Position numbers and translations under genes: made by a program
Shown here: piece by piece, positions 3,786-64,000 of the stretch
Layout of the letters: each line of letters starts with the position of its first letter
How positions within the stretch are numbered: the first letter of the stretch is position 1
NCBI GenBank assembly: GCA_963810095.1
Contig: CAWEMM010000006.1
Coordinates: forward strand, 128,001-192,000
Length of the DNA: 64,000 nucleotides
DNA from: an uncultured Chloroflexia bacterium
GTDB lineage: Bacteria; Chloroflexota; Anaerolineae; CG2-30-64-16
Direction of reading: 5' to 3'
The notes under the pieces: model-generated
Told to the model about the DNA's origin: nothing
Database searches by the model: none
What the model saw: the letters and a program-made list of their open reading frames with translations, nothing else

Positions 3786-3883
3786 GTTATTCGTAACGCT
3801 GCTTTGGTATGGTGGATGGGATACGTCGCCGGTGCGCGGTGGCGCAAGCTGCCCGCCGCATCTCAGCAAAGGAGCCACCCCCT

Positions 3884-13238: not shown

Positions 13239-14162
13239 CTACCGCTGCAGGAGCGGTAGCCACACCCGCTTGTCGCCGACGCCATACGAGACCGAGGTGT
13301 CGGCCAGGACGGCAGTGCCGCCGGCAGTCATGTGCCCGTCGAGCCGGTAGAAGTACTGCTTTCCCCGCACCGCCGTGGTGTCGGTCCAGGTGTAGGTGTG
13401 GCTGCCGCCGCCGGGGTTGGCCGTTGGAATCGGCAGAGCGTTCAGTTTCTGCCACGGTCCACTCTTAGCAGGGCCGCGCTGCAGGTCAAAGCCGAGCAAC
13501 TCGCTTTCGGTGACAGTCTCCCATGCCAGCAGGACACCGGCGGGCCGAGCGGTCGCGGTGAAGTAGGCCACCTCGGCGCCGAGCGGTGGGATGAACTTAT
13601 TTGCGCACCAACGCGGCCAGTTGTACCACGAGCCGTAACGGAAGCTGCACTGCTTGCTGTTGTTCGGATCGACCCCGCCAAACAGTTCCGAGTCCCCGTA
13701 GTAACTCGCGGCTTGTGGCGTGGCCGCGTTCCAGGCCCGAATGTAGACGGAGCCGCAGTTTGGCGGCGTGCCCACGCTGACCTCAACGTCGCTCCATTTG
13801 AACGGAATGTACCCTTTCCCGAGCAGGAACGGCGGCAGCGTGTTGTTGGGATTGTAATCGACGCTGTTGGCCGCTGCGGCAGAAACGCGCAGGTCGTCTC
13901 CGGTTGTCGAGCCGTCCGCCTTTGGCGGATTGATCTGGCCGTCTGGCCCGGCCCAGATCAACTCGGCGAAGTCGCCCTGGGCCAGGGGGACCGTACAATT
14001 CTGAGCGCCATCGTAGACGCCGTAAGCGTCGGCTGGCTTGCCCGATGCGTAGGAGGTTCCCCATTGAAACTGCAAGGCCTGCGCTTGAGCAACCAGTGTC
14101 CCGAGCGCAGCAAGCGTCACCATCACCAAGCCCACACGCACCCATCGTTTTCGGTTGTGCAC
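13239..14162 (-). CDS. Secreted protein with C-terminal Fn3-like domain and terminal VWLPLLQR motif (last gene of the large operon)
   Basis: GTG start with GGAGG RBS; signal peptide; FTATARPAGVLLAWETVTESELLGFDLQR...YTWTD...YFYRL. Confidence 0.75.
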   Translation of the reverse strand: MHNRKRWVRVGLVMVTLAALGTLVAQAQALQFQWGTSYASGKPADAYGVYDGAQNCTVPLAQGDFAELIWAGPDGQINPPKADGSTTGDDLRVSAAAANSVDYNPNNTLPPFLLGKGYIPFKWSDVEVSVGTPPNCGSVYIRAWNAATPQAASYYGDSELFGGVDPNNSKQCSFRYGSWYNWPRWCANKFIPPLGAEVAYFTATARPAGVLLAWETVTESELLGFDLQRGPAKSGPWQKLNALPIPTANPGGGSHTYTWTDTTAVRGKQYFYRLDGHMTAGGTAVLADTSVSYGVGDKRVWLPLLQR

Positions 14163-14189: not shown

Positions 14190-17100
14190 TCAGCGCCTGT
14201 GGACCCAGGTTGCCGGTTCGTGACGATTCAGGAACCAGAAGCCGTAGCCTGGCCGCAATTCGATATCGGTCGGCGCGTAGTTCTCGTCGAGCCACCGGTT
14301 CGTGAAGTCCGGCAGCCACTGCTGGCACTCGCTGCCGCTGCAGTACCAAGCGGTCTTGTACGTTTCGCTCGCCGGGTCCCAGGCCTGCACCGTATCGGAC
14401 TCGACCGGGCTGATGGTGCCCACCGCAGGCAGGTTCGCAACGTCAAGCGGGCTGCCGGTAGGCAGCTCAGGGAAAGCGCGACCGAGCAACTGCCAACCCT
14501 TGCCGATGGACACCGAGCGGGTGCCCTCTTCGACGCCGCCCACAATGCGCAACGTTTCCGTTGCACCCGTGCGGTTGAGGATCCAGAAGCCCATGTCGGG
14601 CCCCAGTGCCAGGGTGCTGTGACTGTAGTCATCTGCCAGCCAATGGTTGACATAGGGCTCGCCGTAGACGTCACAGCTTCCGCCGCAGTACCACCCGGCC
14701 GTGTACGTCTCGCTCGACGGGTTCCACACGGTCACGACATCGGCGGTGTTCGGGCTGTCTGTGCCGTGCAGTTGCGCACCAAGCACGCTGTCGAGCGCGG
14801 CGTCGTAGACCAGCAGCGGCCACGACACCAGGTTCCACCCGCTGGCCAGGAACCGAGTGAACTTCCCCACCCGGTTTGACCGTTCTGAGCCCTGGTCGAC
14901 CCGGCACATGGCGCGCACCATGTAGTAATGGTTCTGCTCGTCGGCCCACGGGCCCGTCGTGCCGCCGGATGTGTCGACGTAGCTTACCGCGGTGCCCCCG
15001 CCGGCCGGCGCGGGCACCGTACCGACCAGGCTGGAGTAAGCGTCTCCGAAGGCGAAATACGCATTGTGTTCCGCACGCCAGACCTGGTAACCGCTCTTTG
15101 CCGTTCCGACGTGCGTCCAGGACAGCTTGAGGTTCGCGCCGTCCACCGCGATCCGCAAGTCGGCCACCGGATCCACGTAGCACGGGATGACGATCTGGCC
15201 GGCCCGGGTGCCGGTGGGGATGGGAACCTCGGCGGTGTCGACCAGGTTATCGACGACCGGCGTTAGCGGCGAGGTCTGGCCTGCGACCGCGTTTGGCGCC
15301 TGCGCGAACTGGATGTCGAACAACTGGGCGTCGCCGTCGATGCCAGACGACGCCACAAATGCGGCTCGCACCACGCCGGGCAGCAGCGAACAATAGCCGC
15401 CATCCAGCTGGGGCGTCAGGTCGGAGCGCAGCGTACAGCCGGTCGCGCGGGCGACCTTGTTGTCGTAGCGGATTTCCAGCGTGCCCGCCCCCAGCTTGGG
15501 CGCGTTCGTGACCCAGACCGGAACCGTCGCAGTGGAGCCCCAGCTTACGGTGTACGCCGCCGTGCCGGTGAGGGCCGGCGGCCCAACCACAATCCGGGTC
15601 GCGTTGACCGGCGCTGCGACGGTCACGACCTCGTCGGCCGCAGACCACGTGCGCGGCACGCCGTTCGGCCCCGTGATGGCTTCTACGGTGAAATGAAGCG
15701 GGCTCGACGCACCTTCGGGCGCGGTCGAAGTGGGCTCCATCCGGACGACAAACGGGGTGATCGTGCCCCCCACGCCATGTTCCGACTCGGCCAACAGGTT
15801 GAACCGGATGATGCCGTTGGGCTGCTCCGACTCGGAGTTGCAATACCCGGCCGGCCCGCTGCCGCCATCGTTGCGGATGCACCGTGTGGGCCGCAGCACC
15901 TTCGGGTCATAGTGGATGCTGGCGCTGAGGGTGACGAGGGGCCGAGCGGGGTCGATCACGAACCGTACCGGAAAGTCAAGGAAGCTGCCGTGTGATAGGC
16001 CGTACGGCGGCGTGCCGGGCAGGCTCATCGCGACGGCCGGCGAGCCCGCCGGGTCTTGCACGGTGATCGCCGCCTTAACCGTTCGATATGCTATCTGGGC
16101 GCCGGACTCGCCGGCGAAGTTGGTCACCTCGACGACGAGATCGGTCTTGGCGGGCGGCTGCGCCTGAGGATGCCGGCGAAAGGTCACCAGTGCGAGATTC
16201 GGAGGGAACAGCGCGGCGGCCGGCGAGCGCACTGCCGACATGCGAATCAGCCCTGGCTCGCCTGCGGCATTGCAGCCGCCGCCGGCGTAGAACTCGCAAC
16301 TTACGGCCTCGACGACGAGCGGATCGTACCGGATGCCCCAACTGCCGCTGAGCAGGGCGGCGCCGTTGTCCAGGTACAAGCGCACGCTCACTCGCTGATC
16401 GCCGGCCAGGTACTGCTCGACTGGATCCAGCCGGAGCGTGGGTAGGGTGGCGGTATCCCCTTCGTCGAGACGGAGCGAGTTGTTGTATACCTGGACGGTG
16501 ATTGGCTTGCCCGCCGTATCGGCGAATGCGCCGAGCGTCAAGGCCAGCGCGCTCTCTTGGGGTGCGGCCGCCGTGGCTGCGAGGGCGAAAACCACCTCGA
16601 AGGCCGTCAGCGGAGCGGACAAGCCCGCCGAGGAGATCAGGTTGGCGCTGACGTGATCCGCATGGACCGCACAGGCACCCGATCGATCGTCGCCGGCGAA
16701 AGGCTGCACCGGTCGGCACTCAAGCACCCGGACGATCTGCGGGTCGAAGGCCAGTGAAAAACTGGCCGAGCCGAGCCCGGTCACCCGGACGATGTCGATC
16801 GGAACGGTGACCCGCTTGCCGGGTGCAATCGGAACGGGATTCGGACCCGACTCACGGCCTACGTAGACGGCCGGCCCCGTGGTGTTCGAAGCCCCGACCC
16901 TGACCGTGCTGCCCGCCAGCCACGAGGTCATGTAGTTGCCGTAGACGTCGGCAATGCTTTCGAGCAGGGGGACGACCGCGGTGACCTTGTTGATGGTGGC
17001 CGTGGCCGCGGGCGCAAACGTGAGGTTGAACACATCTGCAGCGCCGAGCACGCCGCCAGGCGCGAGGATGTTGAAGCGGACGAGGCCTTTCGCCTTGTCC

Positions 17101-17477
17101 CACGCGATGTTGCAGTAGCCGCCGGGCGCGCCCTCGGGCCGCACACAGGCGACCGGGCGTAACTCCTTCGGGTCGTACTGCACGAGCACCGTCGCAGAGC
17201 CCAGCGCGGCTGCTCCTTCCACCGACACGGCGATAGGCAAGTCGAGCCCGTTCCCCTGCAGCACCTCGTATTCGGCGCCCGTTCCAACGTTCAGCGTGAC
17301 CTGGTACGGGCCTTCGCCTGGCGACGCGTCCGCAGCTGGAGTTGCCGGGGCCGCCAAGATGGCCGGGGGCGCGAGGAGCGCAATGATGCACGCGGCCGCG
17401 ATGAGCAGCGCGAGCAGGTCGCGTGCGTTCCACGCCGCCCGTCTACGGCAGTACGCGATCAACTGGCTGCTGGGCAT
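14190..17477 (-). CDS. Scaffoldin-like secreted protein: five cohesin-like domains, Fn3-like domain, two GWNL-type modules
   Basis: GGAGGAG RBS; signal peptide; five repeats LGSATVLVQYDPKELRPVAC, LGSASFSLAFDPQIVRVLEC, LLSGSWGIRYDPLVVEAVSC, LVTLSASIHYDPKVLRPTRC, LGAGTLEIRYDNKVARATGC; C-terminal GWNLVSWPL and GWQLLGRAFP duplicated modules. Confidence 0.75.
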   Translation of the reverse strand: MPSSQLIAYCRRRAAWNARDLLALLIAAACIIALLAPPAILAAPATPAADASPGEGPYQVTLNVGTGAEYEVLQGNGLDLPIAVSVEGAAALGSATVLVQYDPKELRPVACVRPEGAPGGYCNIAWDKAKGLVRFNILAPGGVLGAADVFNLTFAPAATATINKVTAVVPLLESIADVYGNYMTSWLAGSTVRVGASNTTGPAVYVGRESGPNPVPIAPGKRVTVPIDIVRVTGLGSASFSLAFDPQIVRVLECRPVQPFAGDDRSGACAVHADHVSANLISSAGLSAPLTAFEVVFALAATAAAPQESALALTLGAFADTAGKPITVQVYNNSLRLDEGDTATLPTLRLDPVEQYLAGDQRVSVRLYLDNGAALLSGSWGIRYDPLVVEAVSCEFYAGGGCNAAGEPGLIRMSAVRSPAAALFPPNLALVTFRRHPQAQPPAKTDLVVEVTNFAGESGAQIAYRTVKAAITVQDPAGSPAVAMSLPGTPPYGLSHGSFLDFPVRFVIDPARPLVTLSASIHYDPKVLRPTRCIRNDGGSGPAGYCNSESEQPNGIIRFNLLAESEHGVGGTITPFVVRMEPTSTAPEGASSPLHFTVEAITGPNGVPRTWSAADEVVTVAAPVNATRIVVGPPALTGTAAYTVSWGSTATVPVWVTNAPKLGAGTLEIRYDNKVARATGCTLRSDLTPQLDGGYCSLLPGVVRAAFVASSGIDGDAQLFDIQFAQAPNAVAGQTSPLTPVVDNLVDTAEVPIPTGTRAGQIVIPCYVDPVADLRIAVDGANLKLSWTHVGTAKSGYQVWRAEHNAYFAFGDAYSSLVGTVPAPAGGGTAVSYVDTSGGTTGPWADEQNHYYMVRAMCRVDQGSERSNRVGKFTRFLASGWNLVSWPLLVYDAALDSVLGAQLHGTDSPNTADVVTVWNPSSETYTAGWYCGGSCDVYGEPYVNHWLADDYSHSTLALGPDMGFWILNRTGATETLRIVGGVEEGTRSVSIGKGWQLLGRAFPELPTGSPLDVANLPAVGTISPVESDTVQAWDPASETYKTAWYCSGSECQQWLPDFTNRWLDENYAPTDIELRPGYGFWFLNRHEPATWVHRR

Positions 17478-17502: not shown

Positions 17503-17643
17503 GGCCCCCGGCGCCCCTGTTACGTCTCTTTGCCGGGGATGCTGGGCCCCCGGTGCCCCTGTTACGCCTCTTTGCCGGGGACCTCTGGCCCCCGGCGCCC
17601 CTGTTACGCCTCTTTGCCGGGGACCTCTGGCCCCGGCGCCCCC
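17503..17643. repeat. 42-bp tandem repeat, about 3.3 copies
   Basis: GGCCCCCGGCGCCCCTGTTACGCCTCTTTGCCGGGGACCTCT-like units start at 17503, 17545, 17587 and (partial) 17629. Confidence 0.9.
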
Positions 17644-17934: not shown

Positions 17935-20900
17935 CTAGCGCACCGCTGTCCTCGGAAGGTCGACGGAGCCACCGGGCACACCCACCAGGCCCTTTCCATC
18001 CGGCGCGGCCGGGGGTTCCGGCGACGGCTCAGGAGCTACCTCGATAGGCGCCGGAGCCGGCATAGGTCCAGCCGCCTGCTGCATCATCAACGGCAGGAAG
18101 AGCTTTCTCGGCGCCGGCGCCGTCCCGTCGGGTCCGAACACCGGCAGCAGCACCGACCCTTCCAGGTCGAATGCCGACACGTCGTCGAGCTCGATGAGGC
18201 CCTGCCCCGGCTGCTCCAGCGCCGCTGGGTCGAGCGCCCGCAGCCGCACCTCGCAGATGCTCGTGGCGGCTGTGATGCCGGTCGCCGTCACGCCCGTGAA
18301 GCGAACCTGGCCGGTATCATAGGCCGGGTTGCAAACCGCCAAGGTCATGCCCTCGGCAGTCTGTGTGCATGTCGTGACTGCGAAGCGAGCCGGGTCGTAG
18401 GCCAGGTTCAGCGCAGCCACCGCCAGCGGCACGTGCGGCGATTCGGCTTCGACACGCACCACCAGCTCGCCGGTCTCCGCGTCGACCGTCTCGTCCAGCC
18501 TGAAGTAGGCCGGGTTCGCCGGGCTGACATCGCTTGCCGCCGAGAGGTTGGGGGCCGACGAACTGGCTCCACCGGGACACGCGGCCAACTTCACGTCGCA
18601 CATGAGGATGCGCAGCGCGTCGGTCGAGTTGCACGCGCCGTCCTGCGTCACATCGCAGAGCGGCAAGTACACCGTATTGGGGCCGGGCGGCCAGCTCGTT
18701 ACGCCCTGGGCCAGCCCCACGTCGTATTTCAGCACCATCAGCGCGTCGGCCGAGTCCCGCTTGCCGCTCACGTTCACGTCGCCGGGCGGGTAGCTGCCGG
18801 GTCCGCTGACGTCGATCGTCACGGAGTAGCCGCCGCCCACCAGGTCGATGCCGAAGGCCTGGTAGCCCGTGCCGGCCGTGTCACGCAGGAGGGCAGGCAC
18901 GCCGTTGATCGTAAACCGGACCGTCTCGCCGACCCGGGCCGACGTCGTCGAGAAGTTGGTCTCGCCCGGGTCATAGTAGTCGAGCGGAATGGCAATCTCG
19001 TAGTTGTAGGGGGTACCCGTGATCGACGCAATCTCGGCCGATGCCGTGCCTCCTCGCGGCAGCACCGCAGTGAGCGTGCCGCTGGTCAAGGGCGTGCCAT
19101 CGCGCAGCGCGATGCCGTAGAAGAGCGCATCTGGCTGCGGCTTGGGGTTCGGTGTCCCCGTCGCGGCCGCATCTTCGATGGCGTCGGCGCCGGGGGCGGA
19201 CTGTGCCGACTTCTTGCCTGCGGCAGCCGCGTCCGGGGCTTCCGCGTCCAACGAAGCCGCGCCGCCCCCGGCGTAAGCGTAGGTCTGGAAGTAGACGTAG
19301 ACGTCGTCCACATCCTCGATGAAGCGGTCGATGCCCAACTGGGGGTCGGCCAGCAGGTTCGCGCCGGGGATCACGAGCACCCACTGGGTGTTCCAGACCG
19401 AGCGGCCAATGAGCCGGGTGTCGGTGTTCATCTCGCTGGCCGCGAGATTCTCGGTGTACGGGAATGCCTGGAAGGCCGCGTACGGCTTAACCTGGTACAT
19501 CTGGCCTTGCAGCCCGTCCATGGCGGGAATGAACCGCGGGTTAGCGATGTTCGCATCAGTCAGCGGGTAGGGCAGCGGCAGGAGCTGCTCGCTCACCGGC
19601 CAGTAACGCAGTTTGCCGTCCGTATTCCGCGGGCGGATGACGTCCTGGCCGCCCGGCAGCAGGTACACGTAGGGCATTCGGGCCAGGCGCTTCGTATCGT
19701 AGCCGTCGAACCAAACTCCCACGCTGGCGATCTTCGTGACGAACTGCGTCGGGTTGTATGCGCCGTCACCGGGGCCAAGCGGCAGGTCAAAGAAGTTGCG
19801 GCCCTGCTGAATGATCGACGTGAACGGGATCACGAGACCTGGCTGCGGGCCGGTCGTGCCGTAGGGCTTCTTGGCCAGCTTGTCCACGACGCCGGAAGCA
19901 TAGATGTTGGGCGTGTAGTAGCGCTGGAGCGTCTTCCGCCACTCTGCATCCGACGTGTCGCGCAGGCGGAACAGCTCCTGGCGGAGGCTGAAGCGGCTGG
20001 TCTGCGACTGCGGGTTGTTGAAGCCCATCTGCCCCTTCAGCACCTTGAAGTTATCGCGCAGCCGGCCGAGCACGTCGGACAGGCCGCCCGAGCCCACGAT
20101 CGGCTCGGGGGTCCAGTAACCGTTCGGCCAGCGCATCTCGCCCAGCGTGCGCTCCTCCGCGATCTGCTGCAGCAGCTTGGTGCCCGCGGCGGGGTCCGTG
20201 CCTTTCAGGTTGGTCTCGTAGTCGTAGGCTGCGGCGGTCAGGTAGGTATAGGTCTGCGCCAGCTTGAACTGCTCGCGGTACTTTGCCAGCGCGTCGGTCT
20301 CCGTCAGGCGGTAGGCCATGTCGTTGTAGCGGGCGGCCATGACCTGGCCCGCCCAGCGCTTGCGTACAGTGATCAGGTCCTGCAGCTTGCGCTGGCCCTT
20401 TTCGACGGACGCGTCGTAGGCGTTCTCCGCGCCGGCGAAGTTGTCGACGGCAAGGAACAGGTCGAGCCGCAGCTCGCGCTCCTTGCGGATCTGAGCCTGC
20501 AGTTCACGGCCCTTCTGGCGCAGCTCGTAGTCCGATTCGGCGTCGAAGACCTCCCTTTCGGTCTGCCGTTCGGTAATCTCCTTGCTCAGCTCGCTCAGGT
20601 CGACCAGGGCTTCGAGGTTTTCTGCGACCTGCTTTACCACAAACCCCGCAATGGATCCCGCCATTTCGATGGTTGCCGAGGCAGGTGCCCCGGCGTTGAC
20701 GGACGTACCGACAAATGTGATGAGGTTTTCGCCAACTTCCTTTGCGTGCTCCTCAATCGACTCGCCGGTCGTCTTCAGGCCCCGCGCGACGATCTTGGTG
20801 GTGGCGATGGTCGCATCCAGCGAGTCCAGCGCCCGGCGCTCCGTGTCCTTGAGCCCCCGCTTCGTGTCGACAAAGTCGGCGTAGTCGTGGAGCGCCACCG

Positions 20901-23900
20901 TGGCTTCGTCGATCTCCTCGATCTGGTTTTCGTAGGCCTCGATGGCCTTCTCCATCTCGGCCCGCTTATCGTAGACGTCCCACAGCTTGCTCTGGAGCTC
21001 GCCCGAGGCCTTGCGTCTCGCGCCGGCCCACGATGAAGGCAGGTAGACGCCCCGGCCCGCGTCGAGCCCGATGCCCACCTCATACTTGACGCCCAGCTCG
21101 GTCGGCTCGTTGACCCCTTCCTCGCAGACCTTCGGGGCCTTCGAGTCCTCCAGCGCCTCCACGTAATGACCCAGGCACTCCATCCGCGGGAACTCGACCA
21201 ACTCCGTCTCTGTCGTCGCCCGGCATTCGTCCGTCCCGCTCAATTCGCCACAGCGGGCTTCCTTGTCGGTCAGGTCCGTGCGCTCAATCAGGAAGTAGTT
21301 GTAGATGTCGGGCCCCGCATAGCCTGCTGGGTAGGTGCCGTTGACGCCGATGTCCTTGTCGTACGGGTAGCCGAAGAGTTCGATCAGCTCGTTCACCCGG
21401 GCCCGGTCCTCGGCCATCATGTTGGTTGCGAAAGTCTGCTGCTCGTCCTGGCCCTGCCGCTCCGCGACCTTCGCCTCGTTGGCGAACGCGAACATCTTGA
21501 GGCTGTTGGAGAGCGCGTCGATCGCCTTGTCGTATACCTGCTCGAAGTGCGTCTGGCCCGGCTTCTCTGGCGTCGTCTTGGTAAGCGCAGGGTCCAGGTC
21601 GAACATCAGCGCGTCTTTGTTCAGGCCCAGCGGGTTCACGCCCGTGTCCGCTCGGTCGAGGTCGGTTTGGATGTTGGTCAACTCGCTCGCAATCGCCGCG
21701 ATGTCCTCCACGGTCGTGCGATCGATCTTCCGCACGTCCGAGTAGCGGTCGTCAACCGGGGGCACGATTGCGTTCGCCACCAGCCAGTCGAAGTATGCGC
21801 CCTCGCCCGTCCGGCCGGCCCAGTCGGCCACGCCCCAGGCCCGCTTGTTGCAGCCCGCCGCGTCCTCCGCGCTGCAGCGGTCTGACGGGTCAATGTACGC
21901 ATCCCGGTAGGGCTGCACCTCTGGCTCGGCGTAGTTCTTGTGATAGGTCAGGTCGACAATTTCCGCGCCCATCTTCGCGCGGACGGCCGCGGCTGCGGCG
22001 AACCGGCGCTCATCATAGTAGTCGACGAGCACCGGCGCGCCGCCCACCATGATTGACTCGGCCCGCGGCACCCAGGTGTAGTTCGGATGCCTCAAGAGTT
22101 GGTAGTAGAGTGTCACCGCGGTCAGATCATGGCCGTAGGCATCGCCGTGACCCTGGGGGAACATGATCTGTGCGTCAGCCTCGTTGATAAACCCGTCGAG
22201 GTTGGTGTCAGCGGTATTGTAGTTCTGGACGTATGCCACCTCGCCGTCGCCGTTTGTGAAGTTCCAGGTCAGGCGGTTATAGGTCGGCGCCGCGGCCACG
22301 CCGCCCAGCGTCTCGTCGCGGCCCCGCAGCAGGGCCAGTTCCTCGTCGATTGGTCCAAATTGGTCGGGCCGGAACTGGTTGGCGAAGGCAAACATGGCCG
22401 GCGCACGCATGCCCAGCGACGCCTGATCGAAGCCGACGATCGGGTCGAGCGCGTCGTTGTATGCATCGTTGCCCAGCAGCATGTAAAGCTCGGCGATCCG
22501 CGTGGTCACGTTCAGAAGCGCGGCGTTGGCGCCCGCGTCGTTGACGTTGGAGTCGATGGATAGTGCTCGCCCCCGGTCGAGGATAGTCTGGTACGCCTCG
22601 ATGAGGCCCATCTTGTTCAGGTTCTCGGGGTCCGAGTTGAGGGCCACCGGCCCTTCGTAGCGCGGGCCCGCCTGGCGGATCATGTCCACGTTGGTAGCGA
22701 CCGGCGAGCTAACAAAATCGTCGACGCGGGTGTCGAACGGGTTCAGCGCGTCGACCACCCGCTTGATCCAGCCTTCGGCGAGCTGCCCCTTCACCTCGGA
22801 GGGCTTGGCCGAGGGGTCACCCGCGAAGGCCGAATAGCGCCACTGGTTGCCGCAGACCGGGCAGCGGGTGTTCTTGTACCGCACGATGACCCAGTTGTCG
22901 CGCAGCGTGGTGGGGTTTGCCCCTTCGATGGTGATTTCGGGGCCGGGATCCGTGCCGCCGGGCAACCCCTTGGGCGGGGCCGTCCACTTCTGCCAGGGAT
23001 AGCTCGAGGGCAGAACCGTGGGCGAGGTCCCCGTTTCGTCGCCCGCGATCCACCACTCAAACTGGAAGACGTCGGGCCGGCCGCCAAAATCCCCGGTGTG
23101 GCGCAAGGTCAGCTTCTCGTCGAACAGGTTGTCCGACTTGATGACGAGGAGATTGCCGCGGTACGGGCTTTCCTCATTGTTCTCGTTCCGTGCGCACTCC
23201 ACCTTGACGACCTGGAGCGAGACCGGGAGCGCGCCCAGCGACGCATCGTTATTGTAGACGAGGGTGACGTAGCCGGTGCCGGCCGCGTTGCCCGCGGTCA
23301 GCGCCTTGCCCTTGCCCAGACCCTCGAACGGCTCGGGGATACCGTCGTCGTTGGCATCCTGGACGTCGATCAGGAATGCCTCGTCTGCCACCCCGTCTCG
23401 CCAATACGGATCGCCGCCCACGGCGCTGCACGGCTCACCGCCGGCGCCGGCCCGGAGCTGGTTTTCCGCCGGGTCGAGATCGCCGGGGAACAGCTTGCCG
23501 TCGCTGTTGCGGCACAGGTCGAGCCCGCGCGGGTTGTATGTCTTCCAGTACAGCTCGTCGACCGCGGCCAGGTACTCGTCGCACCCCGCAGCGCTATCGA
23601 CCTGGTTCCCATTCATACACAGCTGCTTCAGCCGCTCGCGATCCGAATCGGCCATCACATTTAGGAGGAGCAGCGGGTCGCCTTTGATGTACTCCTTCGA
23701 CGTCCCGTCATAGTAGCCCTTGAACACCAGCATGCCGGCCGCCACGCTCTCGCCGTCCTCGTCGATCGTCGCCTGGCGATAGACAACCCGGCTCCGCAGG
23801 CTGAACGGCAGCGCCTTGTCCGGGTCGCCGGCCCTGCCTGCGAGGCTGAGCCCGCCGCCCAGCAAGGGCTGGGTCTGGATGACCGCCGGCAGCGCCGGCA

Positions 23901-24084
23901 CGCCGTCGGGCCCTGTAAACGGTACCTCGGTCTCAACCTCCGCCAGGGGGTCGATGAGCGACGTAAGATAGACCGAAGCTTCCTTGCCCGTCAGCTTGAT
24001 CTGGTTCGCGTCGTTGTCCCACTCGCCCTTGGCCAGGTCGTCGTAGATGCGAGACACCGCCAGCTGCGACGCGACGGCAGACAC
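17935..24084 (-). other. Giant gene C-terminal ORF segment (2049 aa): conserved core, EF-hand-like loop, helical hairpin, TcA-C-terminal-like fold, dockerin, cohesin-like domain
   Basis: DTNLDGFINEADA; long acidic helices around LITFVGTSVNAGAPASATIEMAGSIAGFVV; GDVNVSGKRDSADALMVLKY and CDVTQDGACNSTDALRILMC; LAVAALNLAYDPARFAVTTC; KLFLPLMMQ. Confidence 0.7.
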
Positions 24085-27000
24085 GCCGCCCTTGCGCGCT
24101 GGAAGACGGTCTCGCCGACGTTCAGCAGGCCGGGGGTTTGAGGCCAGTCCGCCGAGTAGGCCGTGGGATAGACCGCGGCCGAGTAGCTCTTACCGTCCGC
24201 GCCGGTGTAGGCGATCGGGGCCGGCGTCACCCCTCCCGGATACTCGCCCGCGGGTAGCTTATCCAGCCATGGTACGCACTGCCCGACGCGGCTTTCCTCG
24301 TCGGCGGCCAGGCCGTGGCTCGCCGGGTAGTTGCGGGCGTCGGGATAGACGTTGGCATCGTCTCCCAGGAAGAAGCCGGGCTGCAGCGGGTAGAAGTAGT
24401 TCATGGTCATGTCGCCAGCGGCGCGCGTCCACAGCATGCCCTTCCAGTCCTTCCAGAACGGTTCGGGCATCTTGCCATTTACCGGCGAGGCCTGGGTGGC
24501 GTCGCAGGGCCGGATGTCCAGCAGACTTCGCAGCGGCGTCGGCGCGTAAACCGGGTTGCCCGCGGTCAACGAGAACCTGAGCCGGGTGTAGTCGGCATCC
24601 TGGAGCTTCACGGCGCCCCACCCGACCGCCGCGTCGCCGGCCGCAGCATTCTGAGGGCGGGCGAAGGTGAGGTCGGCCAGCTTGAAGTCGCCGCTCCGAC
24701 CGTGCCGGCTGAGCGCCCGCAAGTCGAGGATTAGCTTGCCGTCGCCCGCCGGGCGGCACCCGGTCTGCGTACCGGCCGCGGGCAGCAGCACCACCTGGTG
24801 AGTGGGGTTCGCGGGATCCATTACGTGCACGGCCAGCGTTGCCGCAATGGGCGTGGCGTACTGCGGGCTGGACACCTTGACGGTGACGGTGTAGTTCCCA
24901 GCCTTCTCGTACACATGGCTGATTTCGGCGTCGCCGTAGACCCCGGATGCACCGGCGTCCTCGTCGCCGAAGAGCCATTGGTAGCGCAGGTCGGTGCCCG
25001 CCTGCACCTCGGCCCGGAAGTGCACGACGCGCTGGGCCAGCACATAGTCGTCGGATTTGAGCGCCACCCCGTAAGGCCGCTCGGAGACGACGTTGTGGCT
25101 CGGCAAGCAGCGGACCGGGGTCAGCTTCTTGCTGTCGTAAGTGATCTCCATCGTGGCCGAGTAGAGCCCGGTGGCGCCCACCGCGTCGACAGAGAGCGTG
25201 GTCGTGCCGTTGTTCGTCAGCACGCCCGACCCGATCTTGAGCGTAACGGTGCCGGCCGAAGCCGCAGCCGGAACCGCAGTGGGACCCGCCGCGGCGGGCG
25301 TAATCTTGCCGGGGCTCGTCGCGTACGGCAGCGTCGAGACGGTGCGCGTCAACACGACCGAGTAGGCGGCGAGCTGGGTGCGATTGCCCTGCGCCGCATC
25401 CTGATACTTCAGCAGGGCGAACGAGGTGCGGCTGCCGCCCGTAGCGCGGGTCGCCAGGTCGGTGCGCAGCGCGTACAGCGCCGGCGCTGAGGTGCCCAAG
25501 TTGGAGGCCGACAACAGCGCGTGCTCATAGTTCGGGCTGTAGCCCGGCCAAGCGGGGTTCACCTGGTTGTAGACCGTCGGGTTGAGGTAGCGAGTCGAGT
25601 TCAGCACCGCCTGGCCGGCGATTTCGGACCCTAGTTCGCTGGCGACGACGATCTTCGGCGCATTCTTGGGCCACTGGCAGCGGTAGCCGGCAGCCTTGAC
25701 CGGCCACGCCACCTTACGGGCATCGGGCCGGTACCACGCCACGTCCAGGTCGTACGGCCCGGTCGTCGGCGCCGCGGCCAGGACGGGCAGGATCGGGCCG
25801 CTGCGCGTCTCCTGGACGTAGGCCGGCGGCAGCAGCCCATCCGTCGTGTTGCTCGCCACAGCGAGGTCGGCCGAGACGCGGACGCCGTCGTACGCCGTGC
25901 CGGCCAGGATCTGTCCGCTTTTGCCTTCAGGGTCACTGTGCGCGGGTAGACCGTCGGCGGCCGGATAGAGCAGCTCGGAGCCGATGATGCAGTCGGTCGA
26001 GTCGTAGTCGTCGGCCGGGTTGCGGTCGCGGCGGTCCAGGATGCCCGGCATCTGCCAGTCGACCGTGCGCACGACCAGTACTTTGGCTTGAGTACTGCCG
26101 TTGGTCTGCTTCGCCAGCTGGATCACCGAGTAGGTCGGATCGGTGCCTGTCACGACGCTGCGGGTGAACACATTGTTTGCCACAATGGGCGGAAGCTGGT
26201 CGTCGGGCACCCGACCCTTGAAGGCGCGGGCTGAAGTAGGCGCGAAGCCGTCCGTGATCTTATCGTGGCTGAGCGTGACCGGCGCCGTCGAAACATGAAG
26301 CTGCGGGCCGGCCGGCCATTCAATCGTCGCCGTCTGCGTAAAGGCATCGATCACCGATGGGTTGGGGTCCCGATCCCACACCGCGTCGGCCCACTCGCCG
26401 GCATCCAGGTGGCCGGGCGCATGCAACGGGGTCGGGCGAGTGGGGAAATCGAGCGCGTCGGCGCCGCTCCAGGCGTCATAATCCGTCACCTGCGCGCCGT
26501 CGAGCTTCCAGGTGGGTGGACCCGAGCCGGCAGCCGAAGGCGGCCGCAAGAGCGCCTCGCCCACCGTCCAAGGCCGGTACTCGACCGCGCCCACGTCGCA
26601 CAGGTAGCCCGTCCAGCCGCGCTGGGGCAGAGGCATGCCGCGCTGATCCGCCGGACGCTCCTTCGGGTTCACCAGAATGCTGCGCCGGCTTGTCTCATTT
26701 CCGCTGCCGTCGTAGACGCGATAGCTGTAGGTTGTCCCCTGAGCAGAAGACGCGGTCAGCTGTATTGGCTGCGAAGTGCCGTTTGCCGGGACGTCGATCA
26801 GGCGCACGCCCGCCTCGCCGTCGTTCAGAGCCACGGTGACAGCCGGGGCGCTCCGCCACGCTACAACGTCGCCGCTGTAGATCTTGATGGAATCGCCCGC
26901 CTGGCCTAGATCGACGGTACGCTGCTCGGCGGCCTCGCCGTCTTCACATGCTGACAGCGGCACCATGTCGATGCCGGGATTACCCGGCAGCAGCGCGTGG

Positions 27001-30000
27001 GAATCCGTGTACCCGCTGAGGATCCCGGTGTCAAAGTCGATCCAGTTATTGTCTTGCAGCGGGCCAAGGTTGAGGACTTGAGAGCTGACGATGCGATCGG
27101 TCAGGGCCCCGACGCAGCTCGAATCGTCCACCAGGTTATAGTCGCCCGAAGAGAGGCTCGTGCGAGTGCTCCCCGGCCGCAGCTCACAGCTCTTCGATTC
27201 AGACTTGCCGTCGTAGACCACCGAGCGCGCGAGCTTGACGTCGGCGTAGTCGGTCACGAAGACGTTGTTACCGTATAGCGCCAAGTTGGGCACCTGGAGC
27301 GTGATAACCAGCTTGCGCGCGGTGCCACTCGTGCCGTCGGTCACGGTGACAGTGTAGCTCTTGCCCGCTTCCTTCCCCTTGCAGATCAGAGGCACGGACG
27401 GACCGACCCCCATGACCGGCAAGGTGAGCTGCTGTGGCGGGTCGCACGTGACGTCCTTGCCCGGCTGGATCGAGAGCGTCACGGGCTGGCCGCTCGTGCG
27501 GTTCTCAAAGCGCACCCAGTCTTCGGAGAGGACTGTAGACGTGGGTGGGTCGAACGACGAGTCGAGAACGCCGACGAGATAGGTATCGGGGAGCCGAGCC
27601 GCCTTGTTCAAGGCCAGCGTGCTGTTGGTGACGTAAGCGTGCCGGTAGAGCGGCGCGCCCGCCTCCGAGACTGCGCTGCCGAACGCCAGCCCGCCGCCGT
27701 TCGATTCGGCAACGTTGCCCGACAGCGTGCTCCAACGCACATTCAGCGGGCCCTGGCTGTAGATGCCCGCGCCTTCACCGGGTTCGACCACGGTGGCGAT
27801 GCCCGCCGTTTTGTTCCAGAGAGCATGTGCGGCGTTGTCTGCGAGGGTGCAGCGCTCCAGAGTCAGGTCGCCACGGTTGAAGATGCCGCCTCCCCGCTGT
27901 GCGAGGCCGTTGCGCACGGTCAGATCGCGGAGGGTGACGACCACATCGCCCCCCGCGAGGATCGTGCTGGCCGTGGGCAAGTAGCTCTCGATGCGAAGGA
28001 CCGAGCCGCCTTCGATGCCCAACTGGCGCTGTCGCGCCACCGGATACTCGGACGCCTGCAGGATGGCCTGCACGTTGACCGGCAGCTCGCGGTGCAGCTT
28101 ACTCAGGTCGATGCCCGCATGCTCGATCGTCACGTCGCGGTAAGCAACGGCACTGCCCGTGTGGACGCCGGCCTCCAGTGCGACGACGTCGCCTGTGCCG
28201 ACCGCATCGAGCGCGTCCTGCAGGTTGTCAAAGATGAGGTTCCCCGGGTCGGGCTCGCAGTTGGCACATACATCCAGCCTCCGCTGCGTGACCTCCACAG
28301 CGCCGATGTCGCACCTGGCGGTGGCGCCCGACACGCTGTACGGACGGGGGATGCCGCGCTGGTCCGCGTCGAGCGCACAGTCCGCCTCACCGGCCTCCAT
28401 GGCGGCGCCGTACAGTGCAGGGAAGACGGTGAGCGTGACGCCGCCGTTGTCCCGAAGGTAAGCCAGTCGCCGCGTCGCCCGTTTTGTCGTGTGCGCCGGT
28501 AGTGCACGCTTTGGCGCCGTCATACAGGTTGTAGTCGCCCGCGGCGACGCCGCTGCAGACCACCTGGTCCGGCTGGCCCACCAAGATATTGCCGACCGCC
28601 GAGCTGGCCTTGCTCAGGTGGAGCGAACCGTTGGCCTGGAAGGTGTTGTAGCGCGCGACGATGTCGCCCGTGCCTGCAATCGCGGCATTGCCGGTCCCCG
28701 CCGTGTTAGAGATCACGGTGCTGTTCGTCAGGGTGAGCTTCGGGCCGGTCGAGTAGATCGCCGCACCATCGAGCGCGTCGTTGGCGTACAGCGTCGACTG
28801 TTTTACGGTCAGCGTGCCGTTGTTTAGGATCGCGCCGCCGCTAGGCGCGTCGCCGTGGCGCAGGTTCAGGTTCTCGATTGACGCCGTGACGCCGGCCGCG
28901 ATGGTGAAAATGGGTGCACGGTTATGCTGTCCGGTCGGGGCAGATGTAGCTGCCTGCACAATACCCAGGTGCCAGGCCGGCGTCTGCTCTTCCACAGGGC
29001 CCCGGATCGTGACGTTCTTGGCGATGGTCACCGTCTCGGTCACCACCCCGTTGACCACGATCGTATCGTCCGGCTGGGATTCATTCAGTGCCGCGGCGAT
29101 GCTGGTCAGATCGCAGATCGACTCCGCACCCGGCGCCCAAACGATCTTGCCGCCCTCGGTTTTGACATACAGCGGAGGACCGCAAACGCGGTGCTTTTCG
29201 ATACCCAGCTCGAACGCGCCGATGTCGCACCGCCAGTTGTCCGGGTTGGTTTCGGTGTCGCCGTCGGGGCGAATGCCCAGCCGCGGCCGGGCGCGCAACC
29301 GCTGGTCGATGGCCGCGCTCGGGGAAAGCTGCGACTGGCACTCGTTCTTCGGAATTTGATCGACGGCATTGGGGTCGACCAGCAGCTTGTGCGTCAGGGT
29401 TGGACCGCCGTTATCTGCCAACTCGCCCAGCGGCACCAGCTGGTTATTGACGTCAGTCGCCTGGTTAAGCGCCGCGCATGAGGCGTCATCCGTCCGGTTG
29501 TAACCACCCGAAACGATGCCGGCCGAGTAAAAGCAGTTCGTGCGACCGCTCCCGCCGCTCGGCTGGGTGACAATCGTGGCTTCGAGGGTGAGGCCGGTAG
29601 CCGAGTTGTGGACATTCGCGGCCTTCGGACCCGCGTCCGCACTGGTCTTGTTCTGCGTGATGGTCAGGAAGCGCAGGTCGGCCGTGCCGCCCGCGTGCCA
29701 CAGCCCGCCGCCGCTCCACAGGCCCGTGTTGCCCGAGACGGTCAAGTTGCGCCCGGTGAAAGTGCCATCCAGCTGGAAGATGCCGCCGCCACCGCCTGCG
29801 CTGTTGCCGGCGAGCGCCGACTCCTCGACTACGACGTTCGACGCCGGCCCTACGAAGAGGCCGCCGCCCTCGCCGCCGCCGGTCAGGTTGGCCTCGTCCA
29901 GCGTCCCGTTCATCAGGAGGCCGATCTCGGTCCCGGTCAGCTCCCGGTCGTACACGCGGACGCTGCGCACCGTGCCCGTCAGCTTGTATTGGTTGGGATC

Positions 30001-33000
30001 CCATGGCGCCGCGCCGATGACGAAGTCGCTCGTGCCGGTGCCGATCGGGAGGGACGAAGCCGAGGTCTGGCCGTTGGACGCGGGAATGACGCCGTTGACG
30101 TAGACGGTCAGCTTGCCGCCCGTGCGATAGGTCGCCGCGATGTGCGTCCAGGTGTTCGCCGGAATCGACCCGGAGGGATACAGCGTTTTGTGGCCGCTGT
30201 TCGCATCCCAGACCTCGACGCTCACCGCATTATGGTAGACCGAGAGCACGTAGCCGCGGGCGTTGGGGGGCGTCCCCTCGACCTTGCCCAGCACCTTGCC
30301 ATCGCCGCTGGGGCTGCTCGGCACATAAACCCAGGCCGCCAACGTCATCGACGCGGACAGGTTGAGGCTGTCGGAGCTCGGCACACGGATGGGCTGCTTC
30401 GCTTGGAACTTCAGCCCGTAGTAGTCGCCAAGTTTCTCGACCACCGGGCAGTCGTTGCCGTTCGTGTTCGAGTTGAAGCACCAGCCGTGATTCTGGTATG
30501 GGCTGCTGTCGCGGAAATCGCGGCTGGGTCCCACGTCCCACGCCAGCACCTGCGCCCCGTTCTTGTTGCCCTGGACGGTGGTATTGCGTATGGTCAGCGA
30601 AGCGGTGCCGGCCTGCCCCCCTGCGGCAGCGAGGCCGCCACCGCTGACCGCTGCGGTATTGTCGCTGATCTTCGTGCCGCTGATGACCACACCGGCCGCG
30701 GGCAGCACCCTGACGCCTCCGCCGCTGCCCGCGACGCCGTTCTTGAGCGTCAGGTTCGGCCCGGTCACGTTCGTCGTGCCGCCCGCCGCAGTGAGCACCC
30801 GGCCCTTGCCGCCCGCGTCAAGCGTTGCGCTTGCCAAGTGCGTGGTCAGTGTCACGTTCTTCGTCGTGCGGATCAGTTGGTACTCGTCGCCGCCGCGCCA
30901 GGCGCCCACGCACGGACCCTTGGTAATGCTGATGGTGGCTCCGGCCTGCGCCGCATCGACCGCGGCCTGCAGAGCGCTGCCGTTCACGCTCGCCTGCCCG
31001 CCGGCCTCGCACTGGGCGGTCACGCTCTGGGCCTCGTATGCGCCGATATCGCAAATCGTGGTGCCCGCGCCGGCCACGCGCTCCCGCGCTGGTCGACCGC
31101 GGGGGCGCTGCCGCCCAGGTCGCACTTGCCCGAGTCCACCGCAGGGCTTTCGTCACCCGGCTGCGCGTTGAGCGCATGGGTCAGGGTCGTGCCGCCATTG
31201 TTCGCCAGAGCCCCCAGGCCCGGGTCGGTGACCCAGGTTTGGTCAAAAGCCTGGGCGAACTTCGGCGTGCTGTTCACGCGGCCCACGAGGTTGTAGCCCA
31301 AGCTCTGCAGATTGTCTGCACTACCCGCCGTCCGCTCCACGTCGTCGCCAGTGATGTTGGCGGCGAGGATCGTGTTGCCCACCTGCAGCGTGCCACCGCT
31401 GGTTTCGTATGCCAGGCCCACGCCCCGCGGCGCGGTGTTGGCCGTGATCGTGCTGTGCAAGATCTTGCCGCCGGTGCCCGCGCTGAAGATCCCGCCGCCC
31501 TTCACGGTGGCAGTGTTGCCCGAGGCCGTCACCAGGCTTAAGGAAGCTTGCCCGCGCTACTGGTGCACAGCCCGCCACCGCTCTGGCTGTTGTTGCCCGA
31601 CAGCGTCACGCTCTGCAGGTCAAGCCCGGTCCCGGCCGCGTAGATGCCGCCGCCGCAGATGTCCGCGGCATTGCCGCTGACCGTCGTGTTCTTAATCGCC
31701 AGCGAGTTGCCGCTGCCGTCGAAAATGCCGCCCCCGTAGTGCCCCCGGTTGGCCTCCACCCTCGAGGCGTTCACCGTCATTGTCGCCCGGTTGGCGATGC
31801 CGCCGCCGCTCGCAGTATCCGCAACATTGTCATGGATGTAGGCGTTGTTAAGCGTCAGCGTGGCAATGCGGTTCAACAGCCCGGCCCCGTCGTCGCCCAG
31901 GTGACCGTTAACCAGTTCGAGGTTGCTCGCCGTGACCGAGATCGAGGCGGTGTTGTCCAGCAGCAGCACCCGGCCGAGGCCCCCGGCGTCAATGACGGCC
32001 CGGCCCGCCGGCGTCGCGCTCTTGTACGTGCTCGGGGTGCCGCCAACGATCGTGAGGCTCTTGTTAATCAACGCCGTCTGGACGGTGCCCGCTTTGAACC
32101 ACATCCCCTTGCACACGCCGCCCACGTTCACCCGCTCGGTCGCCTCGTCGAGCGCGGCCTGGAACGCTCGGCCATTCACGCTGGAGCGCTCAGTCGAGGC
32201 GAAGTTATTCGTGCTGAAGCAGTTCGCCGTGACCGACTGCAGCTCGACGGCCCCGGCGTCGCAGTACGATGAACCCGTGCCTGGCCGCACCTCGCTGCGC
32301 TGGTCCTGGGCCGTAGATCCGCAGATGCCCGCGTCTACGGCCAGGCTGGCGGCCGACGGCGCGTGCGTTTTGATGCGCACGGCAGTGCCGCCCTGGGCCG
32401 GCCCGCCGGCGTCTTGCAGCGTTCCAAGCCCAGGATCCGTGATCCCCCGCTGGTCGAAGTCCACGGTAAACCTGTCGATGTTGCCGCGGCCCACGATATT
32501 GCCGCCGCCGCTGGTCACTTTATTGCCGTTGTCGCTCACGTCGGCATCGTAAGCGCCGGTGTTTGTGCGGTTCCCGGCAATGATGCTGGACGTGATGGTT
32601 GTGGCAGATCCGGACACGGCCAGGCCCGCGCCGCTCGGGGCCTGGTTGTCCGTGATGGTGGTATTCCTGATGGTGACGGCGGCTGTGCTCAGGTACAGGC
32701 CGCCGCCCGTGCCGGCCGGCGCACTGTTTCCCGAGATCGTGCAATTGTCGATGGTGGTAGGCTTTGCGACGACCACGCCGCCGCCGAAGCTGCCGCTGGC
32801 CGTGTTGCCGCTGACCGTCACCCCGCTAAGCGAGATCGACGAGCCGGCGTTATTGTAGATTCCGCCGCCCTGGTCGGCCTTGTTGCCGGCAACCGTGGAG
32901 TCCGTCACGCTGAGTGCGCCAAGAGCGATCAGGCCGCCGCCCAAATGCCCGACCGACTCATTGTTGCTCACCACGCTGCGGGTCAGCGTCAAGTCCTTCG

Positions 33001-48984: not shown

Positions 48985-49452
48985 CTGATCCCTCCTAAAC
49001 TCACTAAAAGGCTGCGGCTGCATCGATCGCTCTGTTCTGCCCGTGGTCACCAACTCTTGCATCATCATTCGAGTTCATCGGCGATTCTCATATCCTCACC
49101 CAGGGATCTTCGTATCCGCGCGCCCTGGTGCGCCACGACGGTTCGGTCGAAACCCTGCACGCTGTCGAGGCTGGCTGCATGCGAGGTAAGCCCGGCCGCG
49201 GAGTTTGGCCAGTCGACCCGCCCGCCTGCAATCGGACCCGGAGTACGCCCAAAGCGGTTCGCGGCGAGTGCGTAGCTCGCACCTCCTGTGAGCTACCCCC
49301 TAGCAGTTTCTGGACGCAATATCGTTTGGCCGGGTCCATAAAGGCGCGCTGGAAAGGCTCCAGCGCCGCCGTCAATCAGGATAGAGAGACTGAAGCCGCG
49401 AGGCAATACGTCTGGGGATGAGGTTCAGGATGATTTTTCGGCGGTGACGCGG

Positions 49453-57042: not shown

Positions 57043-57160
57043 TGCGCGCCGCGGCCAACTGCCTCCAACGCAACACGACGGCAGAAAGCAGCTGCGAACG
57101 CGCGAGATCCTTCAGGGTCTTGCCGGCCGTGGCGTCGAGGCCGGATCACGAGGAGATGGG

Positions 57161-62672: not shown

Positions 62673-62692
62673 AAGTAGCCTCCTACGGTCGA

Positions 62693-63701: not shown

Positions 63702-64000
63702 AATGGATTCTTCCTGTCAGAGGGTGGCGAGGCAGAAGATGGGCGCCTCGACTTTCCGTTTGCTCCGCGTCTGGCAAGTCGTGTGAATGGACGGAGCTGT
63801 GTAACTTAAGTGCCAAACGGACGGAAACGTAAGAGGTTACGGAAGTACGATACAAAAATGACGAAATCTGTGGAGAGTTAAGAGTACTGACGAATGGATG
63901 GCACCGCCGTGCGCTCGACCTTGGGCTTCGGCATCGCTACGTAAGAAACAACCGAAGGTGACGGGTTTTGTTGAGTTGCGACAGATCGAAACTGGGCGTC

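What the first reader, a model, noticed from the sequence alone, without database searches (positions are those of the whole stretch)
19270..21020. Tc-toxin-A-like translocation hairpin and TcB-binding-like fold without TcB/TcC
Seen: two long charged helical runs flank an apolar small-residue tip (LITFVGTSVNAGAPASATIEMAGSIAGFVV). They are followed in order by YREQFKLAQTYTYLTAAAYDYE, SRFSLRQEL, KIASVGVWF, GRSVWNTQWVLVIP and EDVDDVYVYFQTYA. Known: the TcA C-terminus has a helical-hairpin pore then motifs of the form Y..lA....Ae.ay.yE, tvSL, RIksVsv, W.lel and IsDvilhl.Y in the same order. Inference: a remote TcA homologue by eye. The cargo is unknown because no RHS cocoon is encoded in this window.
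Basis: inference. Interest (0 to 1): 0.8.

Follow-up and report, generated by a model that had tools for sequence, protein, structure and literature searches.

The report
Giant secreted protein with Tc-like needle
This stretch is the end of a giant exported protein from an environmental bacterium whose tail is built like the membrane-piercing needle of insecticidal Tc toxins, but its gene cluster usually lacks the toxin-carrying parts, which points to an undescribed surface machine shared by many soil, sediment and water bacteria.

Summary
All six motifs are present, in order. They lie at the end of a ~5,900-codon gene, split into six frames, probably by assembly errors. The TcA likeness holds. 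Every listed Foldseek hit at E<=1e-3 is a TcA, collinear with TcdA1 ~2010-2516, and a profile match covers the tip and ascending helix. The match is remote (about 10% identity, TM-score about 0.2), and no shell or neuraminidase homology was detected. The core defines a large unnamed family: 813 clusters at E<=1e-30, including 38 of 301 genomes sampled from a Verrucomicrobiota-type phylum. Members look Sec-exported and carry lectin/adhesin arms. They are flanked by two conserved partners (C in 36 of 40 loci, D in 66 of 71), often with a PPIase. SpvB occurs in only 23 of 115 carrier genomes and is cleanly linked in one. Best reading (0.45): a surface-tethered, TcB-independent pore. Rivals: structural stalk (0.3) or translocator with a cargo in trans (0.2). 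Oligomer and pore are untested. Neither the literature searches nor the scan's earlier notes returned this family.

The parts
35675..38323 (-). Partner gene C, about 882 aa from the likely ATG. Signal-like N-terminus (by eye), all-beta, middle PapD/ASH-like Ig domain, C-terminal domain with an invariant HPDH motif. Its stop codon overlaps the giant gene's ATG.
   Evidence: upstream of the giant in 36 of 40 loci with enough flank
17935..35678 (-). Giant gene, about 5,900 codons, present as six overlapping frames with five breaks (near 33.5, 31.55, 31.07, 28.47 and 24.09 kb), probably assembly errors
   Evidence: each piece matches intact homologues separately; short-read contigs differ by indels at 4 of the 5 break zones and list no other indel; close relatives have open frames of 5,401-5,467 aa
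33276..35678 (-). Piece 1: hydrophobic signal-like segment, then three LamG (concanavalin-like) domains
   Evidence: PF13385 E 3e-71, 3 stretches; KD15 2.67 at residue 38
28387..33733 (-). Pieces 2-4: beta-helix / choice-of-anchor Q repeats and a fourth LamG domain (variable adhesin arm)
22585..26600 (-). N-terminal half of the family-conserved core (about 1,050 aa in other members; boundaries approximate; PKD and cohesin-like inserts here). Beta/Gly/Pro-rich, no known family, not folded. It sits where TcA has its shell.
   Evidence: coverage across 194 long homologues; alignment A6; no PDB sequence hit; no profile match to TcA N-terminal or middle regions
21631..22584 (-). Conserved helical bundle and short Pro-containing coil before the channel (possible shell-lobe and linker analogue; unproven)
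   Evidence: model residues 1-318; only generic helical-bundle matches, Z<=10.3; no profile match to TcA
20793..21549 (-). Descending arm of the TcA-like hairpin (model 346-404 and 529-598) with a ~125-residue insert
   Evidence: model 319 aligns to TcdA1 ~2010
20635..20724 (-). Small-residue, moderately apolar hairpin tip
20212..20607 (-). Ascending helix (132 residues) ending in the Y..LA..AY.YE motif
19273..20016 (-). Beta-domain with the fold of the TcA TcB-binding domain; it ends the protein in most homologues
   Evidence: 6l7i_A (TcdA1 2327-2516) Z 8.4, rmsd 4.7, 152 of 179 aligned; tail <=20 aa in 69 of 79 loci
17935..19137 (-). Fused partner D: ~120-aa D domain, dockerin, a cohesin-like domain (by eye) and an LPL-type tail. 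It is a separate signal-peptide gene in most loci.
   Evidence: Dockerin_1 E 1.5e-7; fused in 10 of 79 loci; within 2.2 kb after the core in 66 of 71
14190..17477 (-). Multi-cohesin (scaffoldin-like) secreted protein, a candidate partner for the dockerin
   Evidence: PF00963 E 2e-15; homologues downstream in 15 of 80 loci, all Chloroflexota
13239..14162 (-). 307-aa secreted protein with an LPL-type tail; weakly associated
   Evidence: no Pfam or NCBIfam hit; homologue in 2 of 80 loci

Best explanation
The region is a real, remote homologue of the TcA translocation hairpin and funnel domain, built into a new family of giant Sec-exported proteins. Most likely the giant oligomerises (five-fold, by analogy) into a prepore-like needle on the producer's surface. 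A new ~1,400-residue conserved region takes the place of the TcA shell. Exchangeable N-terminal lectin/adhesin arms, plus accessory arms attached through partners C and D, grip a neighbouring cell. The hairpin tip then enters that cell's membrane as a pore, without a TcB-TcC cocoon. D, which carries dockerin/cohesin, Calx-beta, cadherin or propeller modules depending on lineage, is the likely tether; the PPIase assists folding. SHOWN: motifs, fold likeness, family size, operon, scarcity of TcB. INFERRED: export, oligomer, membrane insertion, tethering role of D, target.
For: Fold: 21 Foldseek matches at E<=1e-3, all 20 listed rows TcA (best 4.5e-7), first non-Tc row E 0.2. Collinear alignment of model 319-1104 to TcdA1 ~2010-2516, Z 11-12.9. 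TcA ranks 1 and 2 of 48,161 chains in a search independent of Foldseek. Sequence: hhalign 94.5%, E 8e-8, 185 columns from tip to the YE motif; in the script rerun the real pair gave 91%, reversed 36%, five column shuffles <=0.2%. An apolar/amphipathic stretch of ~70 residues occupies the same place as in TcA. TcA alone forms ion-permeable pores in bilayers (PMC6795518, section 9 read). No TcB need: SpvB in 9 of 50, 11 of 28 and 3 of 37 carrier genomes; none of four single-contig genomes has SpvB or TcdB_midN. Conserved partners; PPIase-containing ORF cluster in 39 of 80 loci. Tail-collar fibre genes sit inside two loci.
Against: Similarity is remote: TMq 0.16-0.22, rmsd 11-16 A in VIA, ~10% identity; Z about 12 is within the range the tool warns of for long helices. 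Pfam PF18276 does not hit. The tip is less apolar and more charged than in TcA, and its descending half is amphipathic rather than apolar. The hairpin (model 451-700) is the least conserved part of the core, whereas in TcA the pore domain is the most conserved (PMC6795518). The tip is unresolved in the model. No shell, long linker or neuraminidase-like domain was detected, so no trigger or spring is shown. No conserved immunity-like gene was seen, although ORFs under 150 aa were not examined. All neighbours are adhesion/scaffold proteins, which fits a structural role equally well.
Confidence: 0.45

Rival explanations
1. Structural hub: the TcA-like hairpin forms an oligomeric stalk, or an anchor in the producer's own envelope, that displays many adhesin, lectin and cohesin-dockerin arms. 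It would be an adhesion, aggregation or cellulosome-like scaffold that makes no pore in other cells.
For: Neighbours are cohesin, dockerin, cadherin, Calx-beta, LamG and Ig proteins of up to 6,500 aa. The tip is weakly apolar and variable. No cargo or enzyme domain appears among the precomputed Pfam lists of 120 long homologues.
Against: It does not explain why the funnel fold, arm length, small-residue tip and LP..G tip motif of TcA are all kept. A linked TcB-TcC-like gene exists in one lineage.
Confidence: 0.3
2. True translocator: the needle injects a protein cargo, either from an unlinked RHS/SpvB cocoon or from a non-RHS carrier docked on the funnel.
For: In G763 (a Deltaproteobacteria MAG) a 2,250-codon SpvB + FG-GAP + TcdB_midN + RHS gene with a variable C-terminus lies directly upstream of C and the giant, on the same strand. 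Two related MAGs show pieces of the same arrangement (L042; G767). Unlinked RHS-core genes exist in 4 of 4 single-contig carriers and 4 of 5 named isolates. Many D proteins carry a beta-propeller, the type of module that docks TcB on TcA (10.1101/590430, passages).
Against: The window's genome has no SpvB, midN or RHS match (88.5% complete). SpvB is missing in 92 of 115 carriers, many of them incomplete MAGs. RHS genes were seen near the giant in only 2 of 80 flanked loci plus G763. Partner C has no TcB-like fold among the hits.
Confidence: 0.2
3. Chance resemblance: a long coiled-coil hairpin followed by a beta-sandwich, unrelated to TcA.
For: Low TM-scores; no HMM hit to TcA chains in PDB; no sequence signal for the beta-domain; the reversed-profile control still reached 36% over 19 columns.
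Against: Helix, tip, helix and beta-domain match TcA in order and spacing, both ending at the C-terminus. Three method families agree.
Confidence: 0.05

Closest known systems
TcA subunit of Tc (ABC) toxins: Photorhabdus TcdA1/TcdA4, Xenorhabdus XptA1/XptA2, Yersinia TcaA-TcaB and YenA1/A2 (PDB 6sue, 5lki, 6rwa, 6rwb, 9c4k; Pfam PF18276)
   Same: Long helical hairpin with a small-residue tip, the Y..LA..A..AY..E helix end, and a C-terminal beta-domain of the TcB-binding fold, collinear with TcdA1 ~2010-2516.
   Different: About 10% identity. No PF18276, PF03538 or PF18413 hit. A different ~1,400-aa upstream core, a ~125-aa insert in the descending arm, a less apolar tip with a Cys pair in 59 of 84 members. 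Signal-peptide-like N-terminus (TcA having none is recalled, not checked). Huge variable adhesin arms. Conserved C, D and PPIase neighbours instead of tcB/tcC.
SpvB/FG-GAP/RHS (TcB-TcC-like) cocoon proteins
   Same: One such gene is directly linked in G763 and partly in two relatives.
   Different: Absent from this genome and from 92 of 115 carrier genomes by SpvB search; not a conserved part of the system.
Cohesin-dockerin scaffolds (cellulosome-like; PF00963, PF00404)
   Same: Dockerin on the giant's tail and a multi-cohesin gene next door in Chloroflexota loci.
   Different: No catalytic modules were found; the hub is a TcA-like fold; other phyla use different D-linked modules.
Giant surface proteins of putative predatory PVC/Omnitrophota bacteria (10.1101/2023.11.21.568195; PMC12057145)
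   Same: Very large extracellular proteins with adhesion and carbohydrate-binding repeats in environmental lineages.
   Different: Word searches of both papers found no mention of TcA; neither describes this C-terminal core in the passages seen.

Membership tests
TcA (Tc toxin A subunit) | C-terminal TcA_TcB_BD Pfam domain PF18276 above cut-off | tested here: not met
   no hit in P0001 at E<=0.1, in the genome (that search had no positive control ring, but the same model rings in other genomes), or in the Pfam lists of 120 homologues
TcA (Tc toxin A subunit) | Fold of the TcB-binding domain at the C-terminus | tested here: met
   predicted model vs 6l7i_A: Z 8.4, rmsd 4.7, 152 of 179 aligned; no sequence-level signal
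TcA (Tc toxin A subunit) | Long helical hairpin channel with apolar tip | tested here: met
   tip weaker than in TcA and unresolved in the model
TcA (Tc toxin A subunit) | N-terminal VRP1 (PF03538) and middle neuraminidase-like (PF18413) domains in order (criterion of PMC7861375) | tested here: not met
   no Pfam hit in the window pieces scanned or in intact homologues; profile comparison with 5-9 TcA N-terminal and middle regions gave <=0.1%; that half was not folded, so a structural likeness is not excluded
TcA (Tc toxin A subunit) | Proline-rich linker and alpha-helical shell with trefoil knot | tested here: inconclusive
   a helical bundle and a ~20-residue Pro-containing coil precede the hairpin, but there is no profile match and only generic fold matches
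TcA (Tc toxin A subunit) | Homopentamer forming a membrane pore | not testable with these tools
   a five-copy model exceeds the complex tool's size limit; needs cryo-EM and bilayer work
Tc/ABC holotoxin locus | tcB and tcC genes with tcA (completeness criterion of PMC12705794) | tested here: not met
   none in this genome (88.5% complete); SpvB in 23 of 115 carriers; one clean linked exception, G763
Cellulosome-type scaffold | Cohesin and dockerin modules plus dockerin-bearing enzymes | tested here: inconclusive
   cohesin and dockerin present; no enzyme partner seen in the window; the genome was not screened for other dockerin proteins

The most novel reading that the evidence does not exclude
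This is a previously undescribed, surface-tethered, Sec-exported nanomachine: a TcA-type needle with swappable multi-kilodalton lectin arms and its own conserved assembly partners (C, D, PPIase). It is spread across Chloroflexota, Verrucomicrobiota, Acidobacteriota, Desulfobacterota and Lysobacterales, and pierces neighbouring microbes on contact without a cocoon. It may be a sister or ancestral form of the Tc toxin channel, with the G763-type locus showing how a cocoon became attached. The direction of evolution was not tested.
Probability: 0.35. Interest if true: 0.9.

Novelty: new variant of a known kind. Interest (0 to 1): 0.76.

Why it matters
Tc toxins are known mainly from Proteobacteria and a few Firmicutes (PMC7861908, passages), always as an A-B-C machine. 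Here the channel and funnel module sits in a large, unannotated family (813 clusters at E<=1e-30) of exported giants in environmental, mostly uncultured lineages. It is invisible to Pfam and usually has no B or C. If it forms pores, it is a new contact weapon or feeding device for groups whose interactions are poorly known, and it makes the origin of the TcA syringe testable. Cultured carriers exist (Marinicella, Wenzhouxiangella, Chiayiivirga, Catenovulum), so native purification and knockouts are feasible. If it is only a stalk, it still shows the TcA fold reused outside toxins.

Tried and rejected
Sequence searches of PDB with the single protein and with four profiles found no TcA. The best row, ZorA at E 0.0055, is a coiled-coil composition match and was rejected. 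Pfam and NCBIfam gave nothing on the core. The family HMM against 18 TcA-family C-terminal ORFs gave <=7.2 bits, not significant alone. The complex prediction of the C-terminal domain with the D domain gave 'no answer' (runs 0.00, 0.45, 0.00); it is not used as evidence either way. The idea that partner C is a TcB substitute by fold found no support: hits were PapD/ASH-like Ig for its middle domain (Z 10.8), and its N- and C-terminal domains were barely tested. The ESM Atlas on C's C-terminal domain gave unnamed clusters only. Cry domain I, SusD and designed-helix matches to model 1-320 were treated as generic. Pseudogene reading: disfavoured but not excluded for the break near 31.55 kb, where no indel was listed. 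No RNA holder was listed, so there is no statement on expression. The family was not found in 300 other genomes sampled from the window's own phylum, so it is patchy there. No tree was built. Literature: seven searches returned no paper describing this family. Subscription papers and supplements were not seen, and the dbTC supplements could hold orphan TcA-like entries.
Full report
Observation. The six peptides lie in order in the minus-strand frame 17935-24084, at residues 1121-1603. Pfam finds only a dockerin in that frame, and sequence searches of PDB find nothing relevant.

The gene. The frame is the last of six overlapping minus-strand frames from 35678 to 17935, about 5,900 codons. Each piece separately matches intact homologues, and the last two pieces map end to end on single proteins (piece 5 ends at 2509 and piece 6 starts at 2512 of P0002). 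Short-read contigs of near-identical DNA from four runs of one study list four indels over 18 kb, one in each of four break zones. Three are seen in one run each at low depth, and one in three runs. Close relatives have open frames of 5,401-5,467 aa. The breaks are therefore most likely errors of this assembly; the fifth, near 31.55 kb, is unsettled. The gene begins with a hydrophobic signal-like segment (no signal-peptide predictor was available), then LamG, beta-helix/choice-of-anchor Q, PKD and cohesin-like modules. The closest relatives are Anaerolineae and Caldilineae.

The family. Residues 501-1618 find 1,426 clusters at E<=1e-3 and 813 at E<=1e-30. Among proteins of 3,587-5,000 aa there are 201 hits; the 120 listed carry varied lectin, Ig, cadherin, PA14, FG-GAP, RCC1 or Kelch arms and no Tc Pfam. 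The shared core is about 2,200 residues. It ends the protein within 20 residues in 69 of 79 loci, mostly in Y-S/A-G-N-like ends. The 80 fetched loci, which are biased toward relatives of the query, span Chloroflexota, Acidobacteriota, Lysobacterales, Deltaproteobacteria/Desulfobacterales, Magnetococcus, Kiritimatiellota and Lentisphaerae. It occurs in 38 of 301 genomes sampled from the phylum of G740, a Kiritimatiellota record, but in 0 of 300 others from the window's own phylum.

Relation to TcA. The AlphaFold2 model of residues 501-1606 (pLDDT 77.7, pTM 0.70) shows a helical bundle, helices 346-404 and 529-598, an unresolved tip, a 132-residue helix and a beta-domain. Foldseek gives 21 matches at E<=1e-3; all 20 listed are TcA structures, and the first unrelated row has E 0.2. 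VIA aligns about 440 residues of model 319-1104 to TcdA1 ~2010-2516 at Z 11-12.9 with rmsd 11-16 A. It aligns the beta-domain alone to TcdA1 2327-2516 at Z 8.4, rmsd 4.7; that range is the TcB-binding domain (10.1101/590430, figure legend seen). In the Foldseek-independent search of 48,161 chains, TcAs rank first and second, but generic helical proteins follow at Z 10.3. Profile comparison with 13 TcA-family C-termini gives 94.5%, E 8e-8, over the tip and ascending helix. Controls were 36% for the reversed profile and <=0.2% for five shuffles, and the beta-domain gave no signal. A second set of 9 TcA tails reproduced the hairpin match (92.2%) and gave nothing for the preceding bundle. The upstream core gave nothing against TcA N-terminal or middle regions. 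The ESM Atlas places 13 of 30 hits in PF18276-type clusters at 0.94, with a low recognition value. I put homology of the hairpin-plus-funnel at about 0.9-0.95; the protein is not a member of TcA as defined in PMC7861375 (passages seen).

Against a plain TcA mechanism. The tip is less apolar (median KD19 1.18 vs 1.54) and more charged (0.19 vs 0.10). Its descending half is amphipathic, and 59 of 84 members have two cysteines there. The hairpin is the most variable part of the core, whereas in TcA the pore domain is the most conserved (PMC6795518, section 9 and passages read).

The operon. Gene C lies upstream in 36 of 40 loci with enough flank; three of the four misses are loci whose giant is itself split, and one looks gapped. 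C matched in 25 of 30 further-checked genomes. It is all-beta, with a PapD/ASH-like middle domain and an invariant HPDH motif. It can be split in two genes, and its C-terminal domain can be fused to adhesins of 6,237 and 6,522 aa. A ~120-residue D domain follows the core in 66 of 71 loci (the profile was built from these same loci). It is fused in 10 loci and in this window, and otherwise starts the mature product of the next gene. D carries dockerin/cohesin in Chloroflexota, Calx-beta plus a propeller in Lysobacterales and Acidobacteriota, and cadherin/RTX repeats elsewhere. A PPIase cluster appears in 39 and a DUF11 cluster in 33 of 80 loci; neither is adjacent in this window. Two loci insert a phage tail-collar fibre gene between C and the giant. 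N-termini of giants, C and D look like Sec signals by eye. The lineage-specific C-terminal tails (LPL, IFxDGFE, FYRL types) are visible in the sequences, but their role as surface tags is recalled, not tested.

TcB/TcC. This genome (88.5% complete) has no SpvB, TcdB_midN, RHS-repeat or RHS-core match, with controls ringing. SpvB occurs in 23 of 115 other carrier genomes. Four single-contig carriers lack SpvB and midN but all have unlinked RHS cores. One clear exception matters: in G763 a 2,250-codon SpvB/FG-GAP/midN/RHS gene sits directly upstream of C on the same strand, with fragments of the same layout in two related MAGs.

Mechanism. The best reading (0.45) is a surface-tethered, TcB-independent needle that binds a neighbour through lectin arms and opens a pore. 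TcA alone conducts ions in bilayers (PMC6795518). Rivals are a non-lytic stalk or anchor for an adhesion scaffold (0.3), a translocator fed in trans or by a non-RHS carrier (0.2), and chance (0.05). Oligomer state, insertion, orientation and target are all inferred.

Literature. Seven searches found no description. I saw passages of PMC7861375, PMC12705794, PMC7861908, 10.1101/590430, 10.1101/2023.11.21.568195 and PMC12057145, passages and section 9 of PMC6795518, and only listings for the rest; no supplements. Earlier scan notes did not contain this family. Four notes on the same genome also read gene breaks as assembly errors; they are unchecked and are not counted as evidence.

Verdict. Observation confirmed and interpretation supported at fold level. 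This is a new, widespread variant of the TcA channel module in an undescribed operon. Interest 0.76.

Noticed in passing
window 17503-17642: 42-bp tandem repeat, 3.4 copies, 92% matches, in the gap between the giant gene and the cohesin gene; a weaker 22-bp array at 39498-39565.
   Followed up: no
window 44868-49074 (-): DUF5979/SpaA-repeat surface protein present as two overlapping frames; likely another assembly frameshift.
   Followed up: partly
window 41734-44192 and 56975-58877: Further apparent frameshifts, by eye: an AzlC/AzlD-like pair, an O-acetylhomoserine sulfhydrylase-like gene and a phosphodiesterase-like gene (names recalled).
   Followed up: no
window 61638-63716 (-): NiFe-hydrogenase small subunit in one frame with an upstream secreted CxxCH-containing, Pro/Thr-rich protein; a real fusion or a lost stop.
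   Followed up: no
window 2067-7879 (+): BTAD-type regulator followed by a 1,356-aa NHL-repeat/PKD protein.
   Followed up: no
L159:7554-14303 (G763:C402): TcB-TcC-like fusion with a signal-like N-terminus and an inserted C-type GWN domain just before the RHS core, directly upstream of gene C.
   Followed up: partly
L155:1786-3294, L157:16464-17945, L153:13103-15331: Fibre-like genes (phage tail collar PF07484; Peptidase_S74 chaperone) inside three loci of the family.
   Followed up: partly
G741:C381 and G740:C133: C's HPDH domain lies at the end of 6,237- and 6,522-aa frames; the first has at least 15 LamG stretches. It may be a docking module for giant adhesins.
   Followed up: partly
G729, G739: Some deltaproteobacterial/desulfobacterial MAGs hold several copies of the giant (7 and 6 matches, some of them fragments).
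   Followed up: no
L013:9488-12706: RHS/DUF6531 gene downstream of the cohesin gene in one Anaerolineae locus, sharing the GWN domain with it.
   Followed up: partly
L156:16873-17445, L158:391-1233: A small gene with a shared C-terminal motif directly follows the giant in two loci where D lies upstream; possible accessory or immunity factor.
   Followed up: no
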